Part shown: in pieces, positions 1,592 to 64,000 of the stretch
Numbering within the stretch: the stretch's first letter is position 1
Layout: each line of letters begins with the position of its first letter
Sequence record: NC_105587.1
Source of the DNA: Escherichia phage EC100
Length of the DNA: 64,000 nt
Direction: 5' to 3' (one strand)
Position numbers and translations under genes: made by a program
The notes under the pieces: model-generated
The model's database searches: none
Seen by the model: only the letters and a program-made list of their open reading frames with translations
Told to the model about the DNA's origin: nothing

Positions 1592-3256
1592 TTACGCAAA
1601 GAATTTACCGTTCTTAAAGTCAATCAAAGTGCGTTGACCGTTTGCATAGGTAATTAAATGCGTTTGCGTCCAGCTTGACGCGCCAACGTTGTAACCCATA
1701 TCCAGACTACCCGCTACGCCAGCGGTATATACACCGCCGTAAATGCTGGCGGTGTGAGTGTGCCCCGTGTTTAACTTGCCCAATTTCTTAAACTGTTTAG
1801 GATTGCCACGGCTGCCGTTAATGCCATTGTGACCGTGTACGCCACATTCAATGCCTGCAATCTTGAAAGATTGATCAGTGGTCAGGAAAATGGCGTTAAA
1901 TTCACAACCTGCAACCTTGCGCAACGCATAATCTAGCACGTTGAACGTTTCGTCGTGTTCACCGATTGCCGCATAGATTGCAGCATTCAGGCGGTGATAC
2001 AGTTCCGCGTTCGCGGGATCGTCTTTGATGTTAGCATTACGATCATCAAGCCAACGGGATAGCGCCAAATCGTGATTAGATTCAACAATGATTGTTTGAG
2101 AAAAATCACGTTCCATTGATTCCAGCACGCGCCCAGTATCGATTAGATCATCCAAAACTTTATCACGTCCGGCGGCGTATTGTTTCGCTAGGAATACACC
2201 CGATGCGCGATTGTGATGGTTGCGCGATGTAAAATCATGCACGTCATGGATAAACTGATATTTTGGTTTAAGAATATCAAGCAAACTATTATCGCCAGCC
2301 CATGACGCAACGGCACAATCATCATCTAATTTTTCCGCATGAATATCGCCATACTGCAAGCCTAAAACATGCCCCGATGTCTCATAACATCCGGCGGGAG
2401 TAGCGCACACATTCAGATCATAAAACACCCCGCTTTCGTCCATTGTTTCAAGCTGGCGAACAAAAAATTCCCCATCCTCGTCGAACTCAACAATCAGCGC
2501 ACCGAAGTTATGCAGCGCCTCGGCCTTTTGTCCGGCTTTCTGCTGAATGTAGTTTTTGAGCGTTGCCGTTCCGGTTGAATACATACGGCGCACTACTTCA
2601 CCTTTTAAAGCTGGCACGCTTTCGGCGGTAATTTTAGCGTGACCAATCGCAAGCCCCTCAATATTGAGCGCGGTTGCAGTTTCTGCGAATCCTGAAAGCG
2701 GATAATCTGCGGTGGGCAAAACATTAATTTCAGCCATGAAAGCAAAACGGCGGTTATTTAAAAACACGTTTTTGCTGCAAATATATTTATCAAAAGCGGA
2801 ATCGTATTTAATACCGTCCGCACCTTCTCCATTCTGGAAGCCGTTTTTATTATAAATATACTTAGAAACAAGCAAATCAGCACCGATATATTCAGCGAAT
2901 TTTTCCAGACTTGCTAAAAAGTTTTTATGCGGGAAAGTATTATTCTGAATCGACGTAATAATAAAGCGTTTACCCTGTTTTACTTCCCATTGCTCAACCG
3001 TACTAGAAACAATTCCCGCCGCTTCTGGGCGCTCATCGTTTTTAATGGCTTTTGCTACTTTTGCCGCTTTCGGTTTAGCTGGTTTATTTGCTTCCAGCCA
3101 GTCGCAGATAGCGGTTGAATGCTTCGTTGTATCGTAGACCGCTTTTGATATATCGTCGCAGACTTCCAGTTTAGTAGCGCGCAGACGTTTACCATAGAAA
3201 TTAAAGTCAGCGGCCATTTTCAGGATAACAGTTTGCTTTTCTGCGGAAATAATCAT
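1592..3256 (-). CDS. A1: pre-early protein A1 (metallophosphatase-fold nuclease)
   Basis: 554 aa; calcineurin-like motifs 'GDIHAEKLD', 'GVHGHNG', 'GHTHTASIYGG'; size/position as T5 A1. Confidence 0.8.
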   Translation of the reverse strand: MIISAEKQTVILKMAADFNFYGKRLRATKLEVCDDISKAVYDTTKHSTAICDWLEANKPAKPKAAKVAKAIKNDERPEAAGIVSSTVEQWEVKQGKRFIITSIQNNTFPHKNFLASLEKFAEYIGADLLVSKYIYNKNGFQNGEGADGIKYDSAFDKYICSKNVFLNNRRFAFMAEINVLPTADYPLSGFAETATALNIEGLAIGHAKITAESVPALKGEVVRRMYSTGTATLKNYIQQKAGQKAEALHNFGALIVEFDEDGEFFVRQLETMDESGVFYDLNVCATPAGCYETSGHVLGLQYGDIHAEKLDDDCAVASWAGDNSLLDILKPKYQFIHDVHDFTSRNHHNRASGVFLAKQYAAGRDKVLDDLIDTGRVLESMERDFSQTIIVESNHDLALSRWLDDRNANIKDDPANAELYHRLNAAIYAAIGEHDETFNVLDYALRKVAGCEFNAIFLTTDQSFKIAGIECGVHGHNGINGSRGNPKQFKKLGKLNTGHTHTASIYGGVYTAGVAGSLDMGYNVGASSWTQTHLITYANGQRTLIDFKNGKFFA

Positions 3257-16496: not shown

Positions 16497-16765
16497 TATT
16501 TCTTACCTTTCAGTTGCTTAACTTCACGCTCAAAAGATGCTGCACGACGTTCGGCAGTTGCCTGATGCTCTTTCGCAAAACGTGCTTCCTGTTTTGCGAG
16601 GTTGAACGCCATAGCATTCTTATTCAGAGAATCATACATCTTTTTCATTGCCGGAATAGACATCTTCATGAGCTGACCCTCAAAACCCTGCATGTCGAGG
16701 AGAATTGCCAGAACGTTAGCCATTTCATTTTTAGTCATGTTTTCCATTAGAATTTCCTCTCTCAT
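16496..16765 (-). CDS. hypothetical protein
   Basis: 89 aa; strong promoter upstream. Confidence 0.5.
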   Translation of the reverse strand: MREEILMENMTKNEMANVLAILLDMQGFEGQLMKMSIPAMKKMYDSLNKNAMAFNLAKQEARFAKEHQATAERRAASFEREVKQLKGKK

Positions 16766-16779
16766 TAATTTATGAACTT

Positions 16780-16808
16780 ATTATACAGAATTTTAAGGCT
16801 TAAAGCAA
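16780..16808 (-). promoter_or_regulatory. strong sigma70 early promoter
   Basis: reverse strand TTGCTT/17 bp/TATAAT plus upstream A-tract. Confidence 0.6.
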
Positions 16809-16825
16809 CTGAATTTTTTAATTAC

Positions 16826-17257
16826 TTACCAATCGTTAACAACGCCGGAGAACCCAGAAGCAAAAACCTTTTCAAATTTCTCTGCAATTTCAGGATGATC
16901 TTTGCAGATCAGCTCAATACATGCTTCTGGAGTCATTCCTTCATCTTCAGGATCACCATAGTATTTATCCCAAAGATCATCAGGGATGATATGCTCCGCC
17001 AAATCTTGGAAAGAGATTAACTGATAACGTTCTGCTTCCTCAGCGATAAGAATTTCGCACAGATCTTTATCTATATCGCTACGATAATCCGCAATTAATA
17101 GGGCATTGCAAGCATGGCATTCCCAGACCATCAAACGTTCAGAGATAGGATTAGACTTATCCTGAACGTAAGACTGGAACAAGGTTCGGAAAGTTGCCTT
17201 AACTTGTTCAAACTTATCTGCTGCTGCGAAAACTAGAGCTTTATCAACTTTGTTCAT
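16826..17257 (-). CDS. hypothetical protein
   Basis: 143 aa; strong promoter upstream. Confidence 0.5.
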   Translation of the reverse strand: MNKVDKALVFAAADKFEQVKATFRTLFQSYVQDKSNPISERLMVWECHACNALLIADYRSDIDKDLCEILIAEEAERYQLISFQDLAEHIIPDDLWDKYYGDPEDEGMTPEACIELICKDHPEIAEKFEKVFASGFSGVVNDW

Positions 17258-17297
17258 TTTGATTCCTTCTCATCAATTTATAAAGTAATTATACAGA

Positions 17298-17326
17298 AAC
17301 TTAAGCATTTTAGCAAATAAAACTTT
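17298..17326 (-). promoter_or_regulatory. strong sigma70 early promoter
   Basis: TTGCTA/17 bp/TATAAT, A-tract. Confidence 0.6.
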
Positions 17327-17424
17327 TAATTAAAATGCCTAATCCTGTACCAATAGCAATACAAATGATTATAAGTATTGCTATCGCTTGTATGATTCGT
17401 TTAATAATAGCCTCAGCTATATAC

Positions 17425-18015
17425 TCAGACATTTATATCACCACGTAATACAGCAGCTACGTCTTCCCCTATTTGTAATACCTCGCCGGTAGTACAATTA
17501 ACTACTCTATCATAGCTAGTAAACTTACCAGACACAATATCCTCTAGCGGAATTGGAGTTTTACTCATTTCAAATGAAACGTTGATATAACGTGGATCAC
17601 GTAGAGAAGTAGTATGTACGTGTCCATGAATATTTAGTTTGCCACGAAGTTCATTGGGGTGCAAAGGGCAGTGAGATAGCCAAAACTTTTTGCCACCTCC
17701 AGTCTGTTTACCTAGAGCCTGAATATCATCATAAACTTCTGCTAAGTCCCTAATGCTCAGTCCTTGACGTTCCGCATCATGATTACCCATAATGAGTTGG
17801 TTAGGAACATTGTGGATAACCGACTTTAATTTGGCCAGACCTTCACGACCTACTGCAATATCCCCTAGCAAAATAAGTTTTGTTCGTTTACCAATATGCT
17901 TGGACAAAGTGTCTAGAATATACTCATCGTGCTCCTTCATGTTCTTAAACCACGGACGGAAACGTAACGCTCCAGGGTGGTCTAGGTGCAAGTCTGACCA
18001 GAATTTAACTTTCAT
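17425..18015 (-). CDS. metallophosphoesterase (calcineurin-like)
   Basis: 196 aa; 'DLHLDHP', 'GDIAVG', 'GNHD', 'GHVH' motifs. Confidence 0.7.
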   Translation of the reverse strand: MKVKFWSDLHLDHPGALRFRPWFKNMKEHDEYILDTLSKHIGKRTKLILLGDIAVGREGLAKLKSVIHNVPNQLIMGNHDAERQGLSIRDLAEVYDDIQALGKQTGGGKKFWLSHCPLHPNELRGKLNIHGHVHTTSLRDPRYINVSFEMSKTPIPLEDIVSGKFTSYDRVVNCTTGEVLQIGEDVAAVLRGDINV

Positions 18016-18304
18016 TACTCTTTTCCTTATTCTGTATTAAGCTATCAACCCAAGAGGTTAACACTTTGGTTTTAAACTCCTCGGGAGTCTCTCCTTCCTT
18101 AAGGTCTACCTCATTAAGATAGGTAGTAAGCCTTGTTTCTATCTCTATTTCAGTAGGAGAATTAAAACAAAAATTGACTGCTATTCCAGAATATATTACT
18201 CCAGTATCTCCTTTGACGAAAGCATTAACTAATGCCCTCCAACGAAGGGCATCAATACGCATTGCTCGTAATTCTTCTCGTACTTCTTTCATTCTATCAT
18301 TCAT
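18005..18304 (-). CDS. hypothetical protein
   Basis: 99-aa ORF. Confidence 0.45.
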   Translation of the reverse strand: MNDRMKEVREELRAMRIDALRWRALVNAFVKGDTGVIYSGIAVNFCFNSPTEIEIETRLTTYLNEVDLKEGETPEEFKTKVLTSWVDSLIQNKEKSNES

Positions 18305-19179
18305 TAAAGAATCCTCTGTACACCACAGCTATTATTTTTGTCTGTGGTAAATGTGGTGATTTTGCCAGTTTCATCATTAACCTGCGCAACCGTCAACTGC
18401 CCGTTGAAAACACCGCCAGTATCCAGATAAACACGGTTTTTATGAAGAAGTGGGTAAGGTACTCCAGTATGTCCATGAAACACGAAATCTACCCCTTTAA
18501 CTTCTGGCACTTCTACCATGTATTTTTCTTTAAATCCTGCATAACGCTGGAAATACGGATGTTCCTCACCATTTTTGGATAAGTAGAAGCCTATTTCTTG
18601 GATTACATCTCGATCCCATAAATATGGTTCAATATGGTATCCAGGATGGTCATGTGGGTCTTCCTTAGCTGCTTCTACTTGTGCAATAAGATTATCCCAT
18701 ACTGGGGTTTCTACTTCATTACCACATTTTTTGTATGTAAAAGGTACACCACCGTGAACAACACCATACTTCTTACCACGATGTCTAACAGTTAGGAATA
18801 CTGGCATTTTTTCAGCCATATCTTCGGCGATATTTTTAATGGTGTCTGCATCCAGCTCATTCATAGCCCATATACCACCGTTATACATCCAATTAGCCCA
18901 ATCTCCTGCAATCATAAATTGGTCGTGATTACCACGGACACTGATAAAATGTGGATTATATAGGAATTTGGCTAAAACTTGTAGGTTTTGTGTGCCTCGG
19001 TCAATTAAGTCACCAACACATACTAAGCAATCTTTTTTGCTATTATACCCAGCTAATTTCAACGCATCTTCTAGTAAATCGTTGCATCCATGAATATCAC
19101 CAACGAAAAACAAGTTGGCATCATCCGGCACTACTAGAGTTTTATGTACATTAAATTCTTTTTTCATAATTATTCCCAA
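18304..19179 (-). CDS. Ser/Thr protein phosphatase (PPP family)
   Basis: 291 aa; 'GDIHGC', 'GDLIDRG', 'RGNHD' signature motifs. Confidence 0.8.
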   Translation of the reverse strand: MGIIMKKEFNVHKTLVVPDDANLFFVGDIHGCNDLLEDALKLAGYNSKKDCLVCVGDLIDRGTQNLQVLAKFLYNPHFISVRGNHDQFMIAGDWANWMYNGGIWAMNELDADTIKNIAEDMAEKMPVFLTVRHRGKKYGVVHGGVPFTYKKCGNEVETPVWDNLIAQVEAAKEDPHDHPGYHIEPYLWDRDVIQEIGFYLSKNGEEHPYFQRYAGFKEKYMVEVPEVKGVDFVFHGHTGVPYPLLHKNRVYLDTGGVFNGQLTVAQVNDETGKITTFTTDKNNSCGVQRIL

Positions 19180-19415
19180 ATAACAGTTAAAATAGTTGTG
19201 CCATAATCATTAGATAGTTGGAAGGTATAACCCTCTTTATAGAGGGCTTTTATAGCTTCATAACTAATTTCATCGCGATTAAACTGTACAAAAGAACCTC
19301 CAATCTCCACAGAAGAAACTATTCTCTTTTTAACATACTTATATGGTTTCTTTCTGCTCTTAAGAAGCGTAGCTCTATTTATCCTGGCTAAACGTTTTGC
19401 TTGTTCCGCTAACAT
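19170..19415 (-). CDS. hypothetical protein
   Basis: 81-aa ORF. Confidence 0.45.
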   Translation of the reverse strand: MLAEQAKRLARINRATLLKSRKKPYKYVKKRIVSSVEIGGSFVQFNRDEISYEAIKALYKEGYTFQLSNDYGTTILTVIWE

Positions 19416-19442
19416 TTAATCCTCCGGTCAATTTATATAAAT

Positions 19443-19471
19443 ATTATACCAAAATTTTTAGCAAAAAGCAA
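19443..19471 (-). promoter_or_regulatory. strong sigma70 early promoter
   Basis: TTGCTT/17 bp/TATAAT, A-tract. Confidence 0.6.
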
Positions 19472-19478
19472 GTAAAAT

Positions 19479-19505
19479 AAAAGCCTGATCCGCTAAGATC
19501 AGGCT
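19479..19505 (-). terminator. hairpin terminator
   Basis: AGCCTGATC-loop-GATCAGGCT with flanking T-runs. Confidence 0.5.
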
Positions 19506-19512
19506 TTGTTTA

Positions 19513-19803
19513 TTAGTCCTCTGGATTATCGTCCAGGAAATTTTTAATAGCTTCGTGCATAGTTTCTTTACGAAGCTGACGTCCAATCAAAATATGATTG
19601 GCTTCTACTCGACCATTAGGTAAGCGATCTGCCAGAACTACTACAGGAACTTGGCGCACACCAAATTTCTGCATTAATTCTGTATTATCAGTCTCTTTAT
19701 GGATTTCCAAATTATAGTCATTGACTACTTTATCAAATACTGGCTCAAACATTTTGCAAGGATTGCAAGTGGAACCTTTCAATAGATATACTAATTTACT
19801 CAT
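19513..19803 (-). CDS. thioredoxin/glutaredoxin-like protein
   Basis: 96 aa; CxxC active site 'CNPC' near N-terminus. Confidence 0.6.
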   Translation of the reverse strand: MSKLVYLLKGSTCNPCKMFEPVFDKVVNDYNLEIHKETDNTELMQKFGVRQVPVVVLADRLPNGRVEANHILIGRQLRKETMHEAIKNFLDDNPED

Positions 19804-20227
19804 AGTTATTAATGGCCTCTAAGAAGTTTTTCATAGTTTTTACGGTTGCGGTGCTTAGATCAAGATTTACACCCAAACACTCGGTTAATGCTTCCTGATA
19901 AGGAGCCTTTAATCTGCCTTCCGGGACTTCTACCTTTTTATACTCTTTATTTTTGACCTTTTTAATCATAGTCTCTAGTACAAGAAGCGGTAATTTAGCA
20001 CCTTCAATATCAGTACCCAAAAGTTCAGTTAAAATTTTATTAAGATCAAGACGAGTTAACTTTTTGCCCTTAGACATAGATGCACCTACCTTTGTATCAA
20101 TAGATTTTTCCGCTTTCTTTTCGAGCTTTTTGTACTCAGGAGAGTCATGATCACGGAGTGCAATGTTTAGCTCGTAATGTGGTATACGAAAATGTTCCGC
20201 CATTTGAGTATAGAAACGATCAGACAT
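19796..20227 (-). CDS. hypothetical protein
   Basis: 143-aa ORF; promoter upstream. Confidence 0.5.
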   Translation of the reverse strand: MSDRFYTQMAEHFRIPHYELNIALRDHDSPEYKKLEKKAEKSIDTKVGASMSKGKKLTRLDLNKILTELLGTDIEGAKLPLLVLETMIKKVKNKEYKKVEVPEGRLKAPYQEALTECLGVNLDLSTATVKTMKNFLEAINNYE

Positions 20228-20260
20228 AATATATACCTCTCTTAACTAATTTATGTATAT

Positions 20261-20289
20261 ATTATATAATAACTAGGGCTAAAAGTCAA
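20261..20289 (-). promoter_or_regulatory. sigma70 early promoter
   Basis: TTGACT/17 bp/TATAAT. Confidence 0.55.
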
Positions 20290-20302
20290 CTACTTTTTTA
20301 TC

Positions 20303-22020: not shown

Positions 22021-22620
22021 TTACTCTTCATTGTGCTCCTCGGACTGAGGTAACTGGGCTTTATTATATTGCTCAGATCGATATTTTGCCAAGATTTCAA
22101 TACGCTTATGGATTTCCTTGCTATCTAGATAGATATTTTTGTTGTCTTTTACCATCTCGTCGATTTCATCTATTGAGAAGAACGGATAGTAGACATCTAA
22201 CATCATATCTTCTACGAACTTGTTGTAAGATTCATAGGCTTTCTTGATTTCTTGACCTTTCTCACAGAACCCACCAGAGAACGTATGTCCCATTAGCGTA
22301 GCATGTGGATGTACTACCCATCCATGACAGGATAGGAAAATTGTGCAGTAAGCAGAAGCACTAGGACCAACCAGATGTCCTATAACTGTTCCACGGCAAT
22401 TAGCAATTAAGTTAGATAACTGTGCCGCAGTATCAACATAACCACCCGGGCCATTAATCATCAGATTAATTTCGTCGTCCTCATTTGCCTGCATAAGTAC
22501 CATTGATAAATCACGGTATTCATCCGGCGGGCCTAATTCTTCATCAAAGAAAAAGGTATACTCATTAGATTGGCGAATGGAGTGAAACAGGTTAGTCTTT
22601 TCTTCTTTTTTATTAGTCAT
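22021..22620 (-). CDS. ClpP-like serine peptidase
   Basis: 199 aa; 'NGPGGYVDT', 'GPSASAYCT', 'HPHATLMGH' resemble ClpP Ser/His regions. Confidence 0.55.
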   Translation of the reverse strand: MTNKKEEKTNLFHSIRQSNEYTFFFDEELGPPDEYRDLSMVLMQANEDDEINLMINGPGGYVDTAAQLSNLIANCRGTVIGHLVGPSASAYCTIFLSCHGWVVHPHATLMGHTFSGGFCEKGQEIKKAYESYNKFVEDMMLDVYYPFFSIDEIDEMVKDNKNIYLDSKEIHKRIEILAKYRSEQYNKAQLPQSEEHNEE

Positions 22621-55438: not shown

Positions 55439-55601
55439 TCCAGAAAACATGCTTATTGAGCAGTGGAACTTTGGTTATAATGCTGGTGTAGCTACTTGTA
55501 TTGCTAGATTGGATATGCTTATTAAACAAGAAAAGGTACGCCCGGAGGAAGCAATTTTACTCCGAAATATTATCGAAGGATTTAAGCAAGGAATCGTATA
55601 G
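55407..55601 (+). CDS. hypothetical protein
   Basis: 64-aa ORF. Confidence 0.4.
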   Translation: MDFLNQNLKSNPENMLIEQWNFGYNAGVATCIARLDMLIKQEKVRPEEAILLRNIIEGFKQGIV

Positions 55602-56437
55602 TGCGTAGATTAATTATTATTAGCGGTGCGGGTTTGAGTGTTGAAAGTGGTGTACGAGCTTTTCGTACTGATACTGCTAGTGGTAAAGCATTGTGGGATG
55701 ATTATGACTTAGAAGAGGTATGTAATATTCATGCCTTTCGTGGTAATTTTTATCATAAAACTCATATGTTTTACAACAAGCGTCGTGAAGAGCTAAAAAC
55801 TGTTGAACCCAATCTTGCACACTTGCGTATTGGTGAATGGTATAAGAAATATCCGGGTCAAGTAGTAAACTTGACTACCAACGTTGATGACCTTATTGAG
55901 CGTGCTGGCGTTCCACATAGTGACATTCTGCACATTCATGGGTATTTAAAAGAGGTTGTTGTAGCTGATAGCTACAATAGTAGCAATAAACGAATTATTG
56001 ATATTGGGTATAGCTCTATTGACCCAGATGATTATAAATGGGTTAAACCTAATGTAATCTTCTTCGGGGAACATGCTCCAGCATATGCAGAAATGTACAA
56101 TGTTTTTGATGGTATTACCAGTCAAGATATGATCATTGTGGTTGGTTGCTCTAATCAAGTAATTAACTTCTACTGGGAATTATTCCCTGTTCTTAATCTG
56201 ACTTCTGCAAAACTTATGGTAGTTAACTACTATGATAGTGCTCTAGCGGTGGAACCAGGCTATCAAGGTATGACTCGTAGTGAGATGTACCAATTGGAAG
56301 AACGCGGTATCCCTTACTGGAGTAAAGGTGCGGTAGATGCTTTCAGTGACCCTGGTTTTATTGCTCGTGTAGAAGCCCATTTAGAGGGTAGACCTTATGT
56401 GCCGGAGAGAATGGGGAACAAATATGTCCATAGTTAA
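55601..56437 (+). CDS. Sir2-family (sirtuin-like) NAD-dependent enzyme
   Basis: 278 aa; 'GAGLSVESGVRAFR', 'NVDDL...AG', catalytic-His 'HIHG', 'NVIFFGE'; no Zn-ribbon cysteines. Confidence 0.65.
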   Translation: MRRLIIISGAGLSVESGVRAFRTDTASGKALWDDYDLEEVCNIHAFRGNFYHKTHMFYNKRREELKTVEPNLAHLRIGEWYKKYPGQVVNLTTNVDDLIERAGVPHSDILHIHGYLKEVVVADSYNSSNKRIIDIGYSSIDPDDYKWVKPNVIFFGEHAPAYAEMYNVFDGITSQDMIIVVGCSNQVINFYWELFPVLNLTSAKLMVVNYYDSALAVEPGYQGMTRSEMYQLEERGIPYWSKGAVDAFSDPGFIARVEAHLEGRPYVPERMGNKYVHS

Positions 56438-63881: not shown

Positions 63882-64000
63882 ATGACCAATGTAAAAGAAT
63901 TTATTAAACGCTGTCAAGAAGCATATTATCAAGGCATGTCTTTAATCTCTGATGAAGAATATGATCGCCTGGTAAAACGCTTCCCGTTAGAGGAAGAGAT
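63882..64000 (+). CDS. NAD-dependent DNA ligase, N-terminal fragment (runs off window)
   Basis: 'MTNVKEFIKRCQEAYYQGMSLISDEEYDRLVKRF' resembles LigA N-terminal domain; promoter upstream. Confidence 0.55.
   Translation, partial: MTNVKEFIKRCQEAYYQGMSLISDEEYDRLVKRFPLEEE

What the first reader, a model, noticed from the sequence alone, without database searches (positions are those of the whole stretch)
17425..19179. Two distinct metallophosphoesterases encoded 300 bp apart
17425-18015 is a calcineurin-like phosphoesterase and 18304-19179 is a classical PPP-family Ser/Thr phosphatase (GDIHGC/GDLIDRG/RGNHD), with a thioredoxin-like gene just downstream. Two phosphatases in one early operon suggests manipulation of host phospho-signalling or nucleotide second messengers, not simple redundancy.
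Basis: partly seen in the sequence, partly recalled or inferred. Interest (0 to 1): 0.35.

Follow-up and report, generated by a model that had tools for sequence, protein, structure and literature searches.

The report
Two known T5-phage phosphoesterase genes
The window comes from a T5-like coliphage, and the two flagged genes are the long-annotated T5 pair of a lambda-phosphatase-like enzyme and a small metallophosphoesterase; both look catalytically intact and are co-transcribed, but neither has been characterised, so the finding is real and ordinary.

Summary
The window is bases 1-64000 of Escherichia phage EC122 (Tequintavirus), where both genes are already annotated. T5 records have carried the same pair (T5.035 and T5.034) since 2004-5.

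Both genes are on the minus strand:
- **18304-19167:** a 287-aa lambda-phosphatase-family PPP enzyme (1g5b E=3e-33) with every catalytic residue and a clade-specific helical insertion.

The two are related only at superfamily level, so they are not duplicates.

They share one early transcription unit: an 81-aa ORF, the PPP, a 99-aa ORF, the MPE, and an unannotated 40-aa membrane ORF. The "300 bp gap" is the 99-aa ORF. The thioredoxin gene lies upstream, behind a terminator.

All 26 T5-like loci examined keep PPP then MPE. However, the MPE slot is a swapped cassette: 53% aa identity to T5.034 and no nucleotide similarity, between flanks that are 88-94% identical. Both genes are under strong purifying selection (dN/dS 0.02-0.07).

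In distant phages the small MPE sits in DNA-replication modules. No evidence ties either enzyme to second messengers. Interest is low.

The parts
19480..19507 (-). Hairpin terminator that ends the upstream thioredoxin transcription unit
   Evidence: 12-bp stem with 5 GC pairs, followed by a T-run. T5 records annotate a terminator at the equivalent place.
19443..19451 (-). Extended -10 promoter element TGgTATAAT, the equivalent of T5 early promoter T5P10
   Evidence: Read from the sequence. A promoter is annotated at the homologous position in three T5 records. The consensus scan missed it because the -35 element is weak.
19170..19415 (-). 81-aa ORF, first gene of the unit (T5.036 homologue, function unknown)
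   Evidence: PHROG 7354 at 1.8e-53. The PHROG name 'major head protein' is implausible for an 81-aa early-region product.
18304..19167 (-). 287-aa lambda-phosphatase-family (PPP) metallophosphatase, orthologue of T5.035
   Evidence: 91% aa identity to T5.035. Lambda PP 1g5b: E=3e-33 and target-normalised TM-score 0.79-0.82. Invariant D24, H26, D53, N80, H138, R186, H233; R57 and H81 nearly invariant (at least 90%). AF2 pLDDT 94.2.
18005..18304 (-). 99-aa ORF between the two enzymes, translationally coupled to both; absent from T5 itself
   Evidence: PHROG 14979 at 5.9e-62, function unknown. It is part of the swapped cassette.
17425..18015 (-). 196-aa minimal metallophosphoesterase of the aq_1665/COG4186 family; a divergent allele of T5.034
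17310..17432 (-). Unannotated 40-aa hydrophobic ORF that overlaps the MPE stop codon by 8 nt
   Evidence: A small hydrophobic ORF sits at this position in 24 of 26 T5-like loci (a near-identical peptide in 22, a different 33-aa one in 2), and in T5.
17288..17316 (-). Next sigma-70 promoter (TTGCTA-17-TATAAT), the equivalent of T5 P-F30, driving the DUF7020 gene
   Evidence: T5 annotation.

Best explanation
This is the T5.036-T5.035-T5.034 early transcription unit of a T5-like phage. It encodes two unrelated-in-detail binuclear metallophosphoesterases.

**The 287-aa protein.** It is a lambda-phosphatase/PrpA/PrpB-clade PPP enzyme. Its active site is complete: metal ligands D24, H26, D53, N80, H138 and H233; general acid H81; phosphate-binding R57 and R186. 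It also carries an extra helical segment of about 50 residues plus a C-terminal extension that are specific to T5-like phages. Inferred: it hydrolyses phosphomonoesters, most likely on phosphoproteins of the infected cell. Lambda PP, its closest characterised relative, is broadly specific. The enzyme may therefore contribute to host takeover or to the early-to-late switch.

**The 196-aa protein.** It is a minimal metallophosphoesterase of the uncharacterised aq_1665/COG4186 family, with an Mre11/SbcD/LpxH-like DLHLGH motif I. Inferred from its recurrent placement in phage replication modules: it is a phosphodiesterase or phosphatase acting on nucleic-acid ends or nucleotides, not on proteins.

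**Shown versus inferred.** Family membership, intact catalytic residues, co-transcription signals, conserved synteny, purifying selection and the cassette swap are shown. All substrates and biological roles are inferred.
For: - **Identity of the locus:** 100% identity to EC122, with both genes annotated there. The same pair is annotated in three T5 records.
- **PPP enzyme:** lambda PP E=3e-33, with residue-by-residue alignment of the catalytic motifs. PrpA and PrpB models score better than ApaH or Pnkp. Catalytic residues are invariant or nearly invariant across 51 homologues. Foldseek top hit is 1g5b.
- **Operon anatomy:**
- **Synteny:** 26 of 26 T5-like loci keep PPP immediately upstream of the MPE.
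- **Selection:** dN/dS is 0.067 for the PPP and 0.024 and 0.066 for the two MPE alleles.
- **Context of the MPE elsewhere:** in distant phages and in a Motiliproteus prophage, its neighbours are Pol A, Pol B, 5'-3' exonuclease, DnaB-like helicase and dCMP deaminase.
- **Literature:** a published statement places T5 gene C2 (late-transcription defect) in the phosphatase ORF.
Against: - No biochemical data exist for either protein or for any aq_1665-family member.
- Lambda-PP-type enzymes also hydrolyse non-protein substrates, and weaker matches to ApaH and Pnkp exist, so the protein-phosphatase assignment is not secure.
- A CRISPRi-ART knockdown of T5.034 and T5.035 scored 'Not Fit', which sits badly with an essential C2 role. 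That screen also missed the primase and helicases, so it weighs little.
- The replication-module context for the MPE is guilt by association. It does not hold in T5-likes themselves, where the neighbours are small unknown ORFs.
Confidence: 0.6

Rival explanations
1. Counter-defence module. The two enzymes would jointly erase host immune signals, either phosphorylation marks laid down by defence kinases or nucleotide second messengers. The swappable MPE allele would reflect an arms race.
For: - The MPE slot is a precise cassette replacement between flanks that are 88-94% identical. Several different insert architectures occur among T5-like phages.
- The pair is also adjacent, in either gene order, in two unrelated phage contigs, L034 and L037.
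- Both genes look accessory in a laboratory screen yet are strongly constrained in nature.
Against: - There is no significant PADLOC match.
- No metallophosphoesterase or phosphatase is mentioned in the text of the paper describing a 268-protein anti-defence catalogue.
- Only 4 of 54 distant MPE loci have a PPP within 10 kb.
- The known signal-degrading phage enzymes, Acb1 and Apyc1, use other folds (own knowledge; the paper is listed).
- Within each MPE allele, dN/dS is very low (0.02-0.07), so there is no sign of diversifying selection.
Confidence: 0.15
2. Nucleic-acid end healing. The lambda-PP-like enzyme would act as a 2',3'-cyclic phosphodiesterase and 3'-phosphatase, like the Pnkp phosphatase domain. 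The small MPE would act as a partner nuclease or phosphodiesterase. Together they would repair tRNA or DNA ends damaged by host nucleases.
For: - Weak domain-level matches to bacterial Pnkp (TIGR04075, 4.6e-10), to a PHROG 'RNA ligase' fusion family (5e-13) and to the PnkP phosphatase domain 4j6o.
- Motif I and the fold of the MPE resemble Mre11, SbcD and nuclease MPE.
- The MPE sits in replication modules in other phages.
Against: - Lambda PP and PrpA/PrpB score much higher than Pnkp.
- No kinase or RNA ligase partner lies in the operon.
- The PdeM model scores 24.8 bits against a cut-off of 150.
Confidence: 0.12
3. The PPP enzyme is an ApaH-like dinucleoside polyphosphate hydrolase or Np4-RNA decapping enzyme that resets host alarmone or cap status.
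For: ApaH models and structures are the second-best matches: NF001204 at 8.8e-18 and 9t9n at 6.8e-10.
Against: - The ApaH matches are well below those to lambda PP and PrpA, and cover mainly the N-terminal motifs.
- ApaH equivalog cut-offs are not approached: 64.6 bits against 176.
Confidence: 0.08
4. Decaying or redundant passenger genes with no current function.
For: - Frameshifted copies occur in deposited genomes: the PPP is split in IME178 and the MPE is split in SH9.
- Both genes scored 'Not Fit' in CRISPRi-ART.
Against: - dN/dS is 0.02-0.07.
- Catalytic residues are invariant.
- Synteny holds in 26 of 26 T5-like loci.
- The screen has low sensitivity.
- The frameshifts may be sequencing errors.
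Confidence: 0.05

Closest known systems
Bacteriophage T5 T5.035 (Ser/Thr protein phosphatase, 'orf5c') and T5.034 (phosphoesterase)
   Same: They are orthologous genes in the same early transcription unit and the same order. The PPP is 91% identical in amino acids. The flanks are 88-94% identical in nucleotides.
   Different: The EC122 MPE is only 53% identical to T5.034. It is 23 aa longer, and a 99-aa ORF that T5 lacks precedes it, because the slot is a replaced cassette.
Bacteriophage lambda Ser/Thr phosphatase (NinI/ORF221, PDB 1g5b) and E. coli PrpA/PrpB
   Same: The three PPP signature motifs, both downstream His ligands and both Arg residues are all present. The fold is the same.
   Different: The T5-type enzyme is 66 residues longer (287 against 221). 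It has helical insertions between the H138 strand and H233, and a C-terminal beta extension. It scores far below the PrpA and PrpB equivalog cut-offs.
Aquifex aeolicus aq_1665 (PDB 1xm7; COG4186)
   Different: aq_1665 is a cellular protein of unknown function, so the match transfers no substrate information.
Mycobacteriophage cluster A metallophosphoesterases (A10ZJ24 gp48; Bxb1 gp47)
   Same: They are early-expressed phage metallophosphoesterases with the same five motifs. Gp48 is reported to have phosphodiesterase activity, to damage host DNA and to act as a counter-defence.
   Different: There is no specific relationship: hhalign probability is 1.2-1.4% against either EC122 profile. The function cannot be transferred.

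Membership tests
PPP family, lambda-phosphatase/PrpA/PrpB clade (287-aa protein) | Motif I, GDxHG | tested here: met
   G23-D24-I25-H26-G27. D24, H26 and G27 are invariant in 51 homologues. They align to lambda PP D20 and H22.
PPP family, lambda-phosphatase/PrpA/PrpB clade (287-aa protein) | Motif II, GDxxDRG | tested here: met
   G52-D53-L54-I55-D56-R57-G58.
PPP family, lambda-phosphatase/PrpA/PrpB clade (287-aa protein) | Motif III, GNH[D/E], plus the downstream His ligands and the second Arg | tested here: met
   G79-N80-H81-D82. H138, R186 and H233 are invariant and align to lambda H139 and H186.
PPP family, lambda-phosphatase/PrpA/PrpB clade (287-aa protein) | Full-length sequence and fold similarity to lambda PP | tested here: met
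   phmmer E=3e-33 in two stretches. Foldseek target-normalised TM-score 0.79-0.82 at 32% identity.
PrpA / PrpB equivalogs (NCBIfam NF008516, NF007425) | Score above the curated equivalog cut-off | tested here: not met
   102.5 bits against 326, and 83 bits against 332. It is a relative, not an equivalog.
PPP family (287-aa protein) | Phosphoprotein phosphatase activity | not testable with these tools
Calcineurin-like metallophosphoesterase superfamily (196-aa protein) | Motifs DxH, GD, GNH[D/E], H and GHxH, plus the alpha/beta sandwich fold | tested here: met
aq_1665 / COG4186 family (196-aa protein) | Specific similarity to aq_1665 beyond the superfamily level | tested here: met
PdeM ligase-associated nuclease (TIGR04123) | Score above the curated cut-off | tested here: not met
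Mycobacteriophage cluster A MPE (Bxb1 gp47-like) | Profile-level homology | tested here: not met
   hhalign probability 1.2%.
Known phage enzymes that degrade immune signals (Acb1, Apyc1) | 2H-phosphoesterase fold or metallo-beta-lactamase fold | tested here: not met
   Both EC122 proteins have the calcineurin-like MPE fold. The Acb1 and Apyc1 folds are from my own knowledge.

The most novel reading that the evidence does not exclude
The lambda-PP-like enzyme is the product of the classical T5 gene C2. It would control the early-to-late transcription switch by dephosphorylating an RNA-polymerase-associated factor. Alternatively, together with the swappable small MPE cassette, it forms a counter-defence module that erases host phosphorylation or nucleotide signals. 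Either reading would give the first physiological role for a phage lambda-phosphatase-type enzyme.
Probability: 0.15. Interest if true: 0.55.

Novelty: already known. Interest (0 to 1): 0.15.

Why it matters
Lambda phosphatase is a standard laboratory reagent. Yet as far as I know, no phage enzyme of this type, and no aq_1665-family metallophosphoesterase, has an established biological role, and my literature searches found none.

T5-like phages keep both genes under strong constraint, so a real function exists. If the C2 link holds, it would connect a protein phosphatase to temporal control of phage transcription.

As a scan finding, however, it only re-detects genes that are already annotated in this genome and in T5.

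Tried and rejected
- **Bxb1 gp47 / A10ZJ24 gp48 as a functional model for the small MPE.** Rejected: hhalign probability is about 1%.
- **PADLOC defence models.** Only one insignificant hit, E=0.003.
- **Literature on COG4186, aq_1665 and 1xm7.** No functional study found.
- **Literature on metallophosphoesterase or phosphatase anti-defence proteins.** Only the mycobacteriophage paper turned up. None is mentioned in the text of the EVADES catalogue paper.
- **Primary C2 paper (PMC355262).** Not held. The Davison T5 review does not mention C2 or the phosphatase. T5 RefSeq has no C2 label between 9.5 and 27 kb. The C2 assignment therefore rests on one sentence in PMC7472727.
- **Genome-contig scan with the MPE alignment.** One cellular homologue, looked up instead, proved to lie in a prophage.
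- **CRISPRi-ART 'Not Fit' calls as proof of dispensability.** Down-weighted after finding that the primase, the D6 and D10 helicases and tail genes were also 'Not Fit'.
- **Recent-duplication origin of the pair.** Rejected.

Full report
**Origin of the window.** Bases 16800-20300 are 100% identical, at the same coordinates, to Escherichia phage EC122 (ON185583.1; Demerecviridae, Tequintavirus). A further 440 T5-like records match. In EC122 the two ORFs are already annotated as 'phosphoesterase' (17425-18015) and 'putative serine/threonine protein phosphatase' (18304-19167). All three T5 genome records annotate the same pair, T5.034 and T5.035. Their notes cite COG4186 and COG0639, and Ser/Thr-phosphatase InterPro families.

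**Check of the observation.** Both ORFs are on the minus strand.
That ATG is the one used in EC122 and T5, and it matches the N-termini of homologues.
- The '300 bp' between the genes is a 99-aa ORF (18005-18304; PHROG 14979, function unknown). Its ATG overlaps the phosphatase stop (TAATG), and its end overlaps the MPE start by 11 nt.
- A 40-aa hydrophobic ORF (17310-17432) overlaps the MPE stop by 8 nt.
- Upstream, the thioredoxin gene (19513-19803) ends in a strong hairpin terminator (19507-19480). A TGgTATAAT extended -10 element follows at 19451-19443, where T5 records place an early promoter.
- The next promoter (17316-17288, TTGCTA-17-TATAAT) corresponds to T5 P-F30.

The transcription unit is therefore: 81-aa ORF, PPP, 99-aa ORF, MPE, 40-aa ORF. 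The thioredoxin gene is upstream in a separate unit, not 'just downstream'.

**The 287-aa enzyme.**
- It matches Pfam Metallophos (5e-16), PHROG 246 'NinI-like serine-threonine phosphatase' (9e-94) and lambda phosphatase 1g5b (3e-33).
- PrpA and PrpB NCBIfam models score 102.5 and 83 bits. ApaH scores 65 and Pnkp 38. All are far below the equivalog cut-offs.
- In an alignment of 51 homologues, D24, H26, D53, N80, H138, R186 and H233 are invariant, and R57 and H81 nearly so. In the HMMER alignment these correspond to the lambda PP metal ligands, general acid and phosphate-binding arginines.
- The AF2 model is confident (pLDDT 94.2). Its best structural match is 1g5b (target-normalised TM-score about 0.8).
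- Compared with lambda PP (221 aa), the T5 clade has extra helices in the 150-225 region and a C-terminal beta extension.
- It is 91% identical to T5.035.

**The 196-aa enzyme.**
- Pfam support is marginal: PF00149 scores 21.5 bits, equal to its cut-off. Other evidence is strong.
- PHROG 547 gives 1.8e-56.
- D8, H10, D52, N78, H79, H115, H130, H132 and H134 are invariant across 38-39 homologues. This is the full DxH / GD / GNHD / H / GHxH motif set.
- AF2 pLDDT is 94.8.
- I found no functional literature on this family.
- It is not a PdeM (24.8 bits against a cut-off of 150). It is not a relative of the mycobacteriophage cluster A MPE, which has reported counter-defence activity.

**The two enzymes are distinct.** BLASTP finds only a 45-residue motif II-III match (E=0.006). 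Profile-profile comparison aligns only the N-terminal half (prob 88.7%).

A third Metallophos protein, the SbcD-like 'recombinase', lies at record position 74814-75791, outside the window. Within the window, no other ORF matches either profile.

**Comparative genomics.**
- Of 80 IMG/VR loci that encode a relative of the small MPE, all 26 T5-like ones have the PPP gene immediately upstream on the same strand. Only 4 of the 54 distant ones have a PPP within 10 kb.
- Two of those four, L034 and L037, are otherwise unrelated phages in which the two genes are adjacent in opposite orders.
- A Vibrio member of the Demerecviridae has the PPP without an adjacent MPE.
- In the distant loci, the recurrent same-strand neighbours of the MPE are 5'-3' exonucleases, family A and B DNA polymerases, a DnaB-like helicase and dCMP deaminase.
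- A 'cellular' homologue in Motiliproteus lies in a prophage replication module.
- Both families are common in phages: 1389 and 1459 of 50,697 records.

**A cassette swap.**
- At nucleotide level, window 18300-19599 aligns to T5 at 88.5% and window 16708-17435 at 94%.
- The 864 bp between them (99-aa ORF plus MPE) has no detectable similarity to the 506 bp that hold T5.034.
- The two MPE alleles are 53% identical in protein.
- Among the 26 T5-like loci, 14 have the 173-aa allele abutting the PPP. Nine have the 196/197-aa allele preceded by a 76-99-aa ORF, and two more have that allele with no ORF of at least 40 aa detected between. Epseptimavirus-type loci carry 122-aa and 68-aa ORFs in between.
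- Both genes are under strong purifying selection. Median dN/dS is 0.067 for the PPP, 0.024 for the 196-aa MPE and 0.066 for the 173-aa MPE.
- Frameshifted copies exist in two deposited genomes, IME178 (PPP) and SH9 (MPE). They may be sequencing errors.

**Functional literature.**
- Klimuk et al. 2020 state that the T5 C2 mutation maps to the putative Ser/Thr phosphatase ORF. C2 is classically linked to late transcription and to a 90-kDa RNAP-associated protein. They infer that its effect on RNAP is indirect.
- I could not verify the mapping. The primary paper is not held, and RefSeq carries no C2 label in this region.
- In the CRISPRi-ART genome-wide knockdown of T5, T5.034 and T5.035 scored 'Not Fit' (fitness -3.90, p=0.76; and -4.78, p=0.98).
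- That screen called only 17 genes Fit. It also scored the primase, the D6 and D10 helicases and tail genes as Not Fit. It is therefore weak evidence for dispensability.
- No defence-related model matches either protein significantly. The text of the paper describing a 268-protein anti-defence catalogue mentions no phosphatase or metallophosphoesterase.

**Conclusion.**
- **Shown:** two catalytically intact but distinct metallophosphoesterases are co-transcribed in a conserved early unit of T5-like phages. The PPP gene is stable, and the MPE occupies a replaceable slot.
- **Inferred:** the PPP enzyme is a lambda-PP-like phosphomonoesterase acting most likely on phosphoproteins, possibly the C2 function. 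The small MPE acts on nucleic-acid or nucleotide substrates.
a role in second-messenger or phospho-signalling manipulation is not excluded, but nothing found here supports it.
- **Novelty:** the finding re-detects known annotation, so novelty and interest are low.

Noticed in passing
window 17310-17432 (-): An unannotated 40-aa hydrophobic ORF (MSEYIAEAIIKRIIQAIAILIIICIAIGTGLGILIKSFIC) overlaps the MPE stop codon. A small hydrophobic ORF sits at this position in 24 of 26 T5-like loci: a near-identical peptide in 22 and a different 33-aa hydrophobic peptide in the two Epseptimavirus-type loci. It is also present in T5, and no CDS is annotated there in EC122 or the three T5 records. It is probably a real small membrane protein gene.
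   Followed up: partly
window 17436-18299: The MPE gene plus the 99-aa ORF form a precisely bounded replacement cassette. It has no nucleotide similarity to the T5.034 segment, although the flanks are 88-94% identical. At least four insert architectures exist among T5-like phages.
   Followed up: yes
window 19170-19415 (-): The 81-aa first gene of the unit belongs to PHROG 7354, and T5 RefSeq names it 'major head protein'. That is implausible for an 81-aa early-region product. The annotated T5 major head gene is D20-21/T5.149, 1377 bp, in the late region. This looks like a propagated misannotation.
   Followed up: no
L087 (IME178) 1705-2569; L088 (SH9) 2501-3092: The PPP gene is split into two CDS in phage IME178, and the MPE gene is split in phage SH9. 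These are either frameshift pseudogenes or sequencing errors.
   Followed up: no
ON185583.1 74814-75791 (outside the window; L090 24815-25792): A third Metallophos-domain protein in the same genome, annotated 'recombinase'. It is probably the SbcD/Mre11-like subunit next to an SbcC-like gene.
   Followed up: partly
window 55601-56437 (+): An annotated SIR2-family NAD-dependent deacetylase gene lies in the early region. It is another potential modifier of host proteins or consumer of NAD.
   Followed up: no
window 63882-64000 and beyond (record 63882-64853, 65056-65835): The DNA ligase is annotated as two separate CDS about 200 bp apart. This could be a split gene or an intervening element.
   Followed up: no
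window 22021-22620 (-): A ClpP-like protease homologue (Pfam CLP_protease 4e-8) lies next to the dNMP kinase, between the lysis cassette and the nucleotide-metabolism genes.
   Followed up: no
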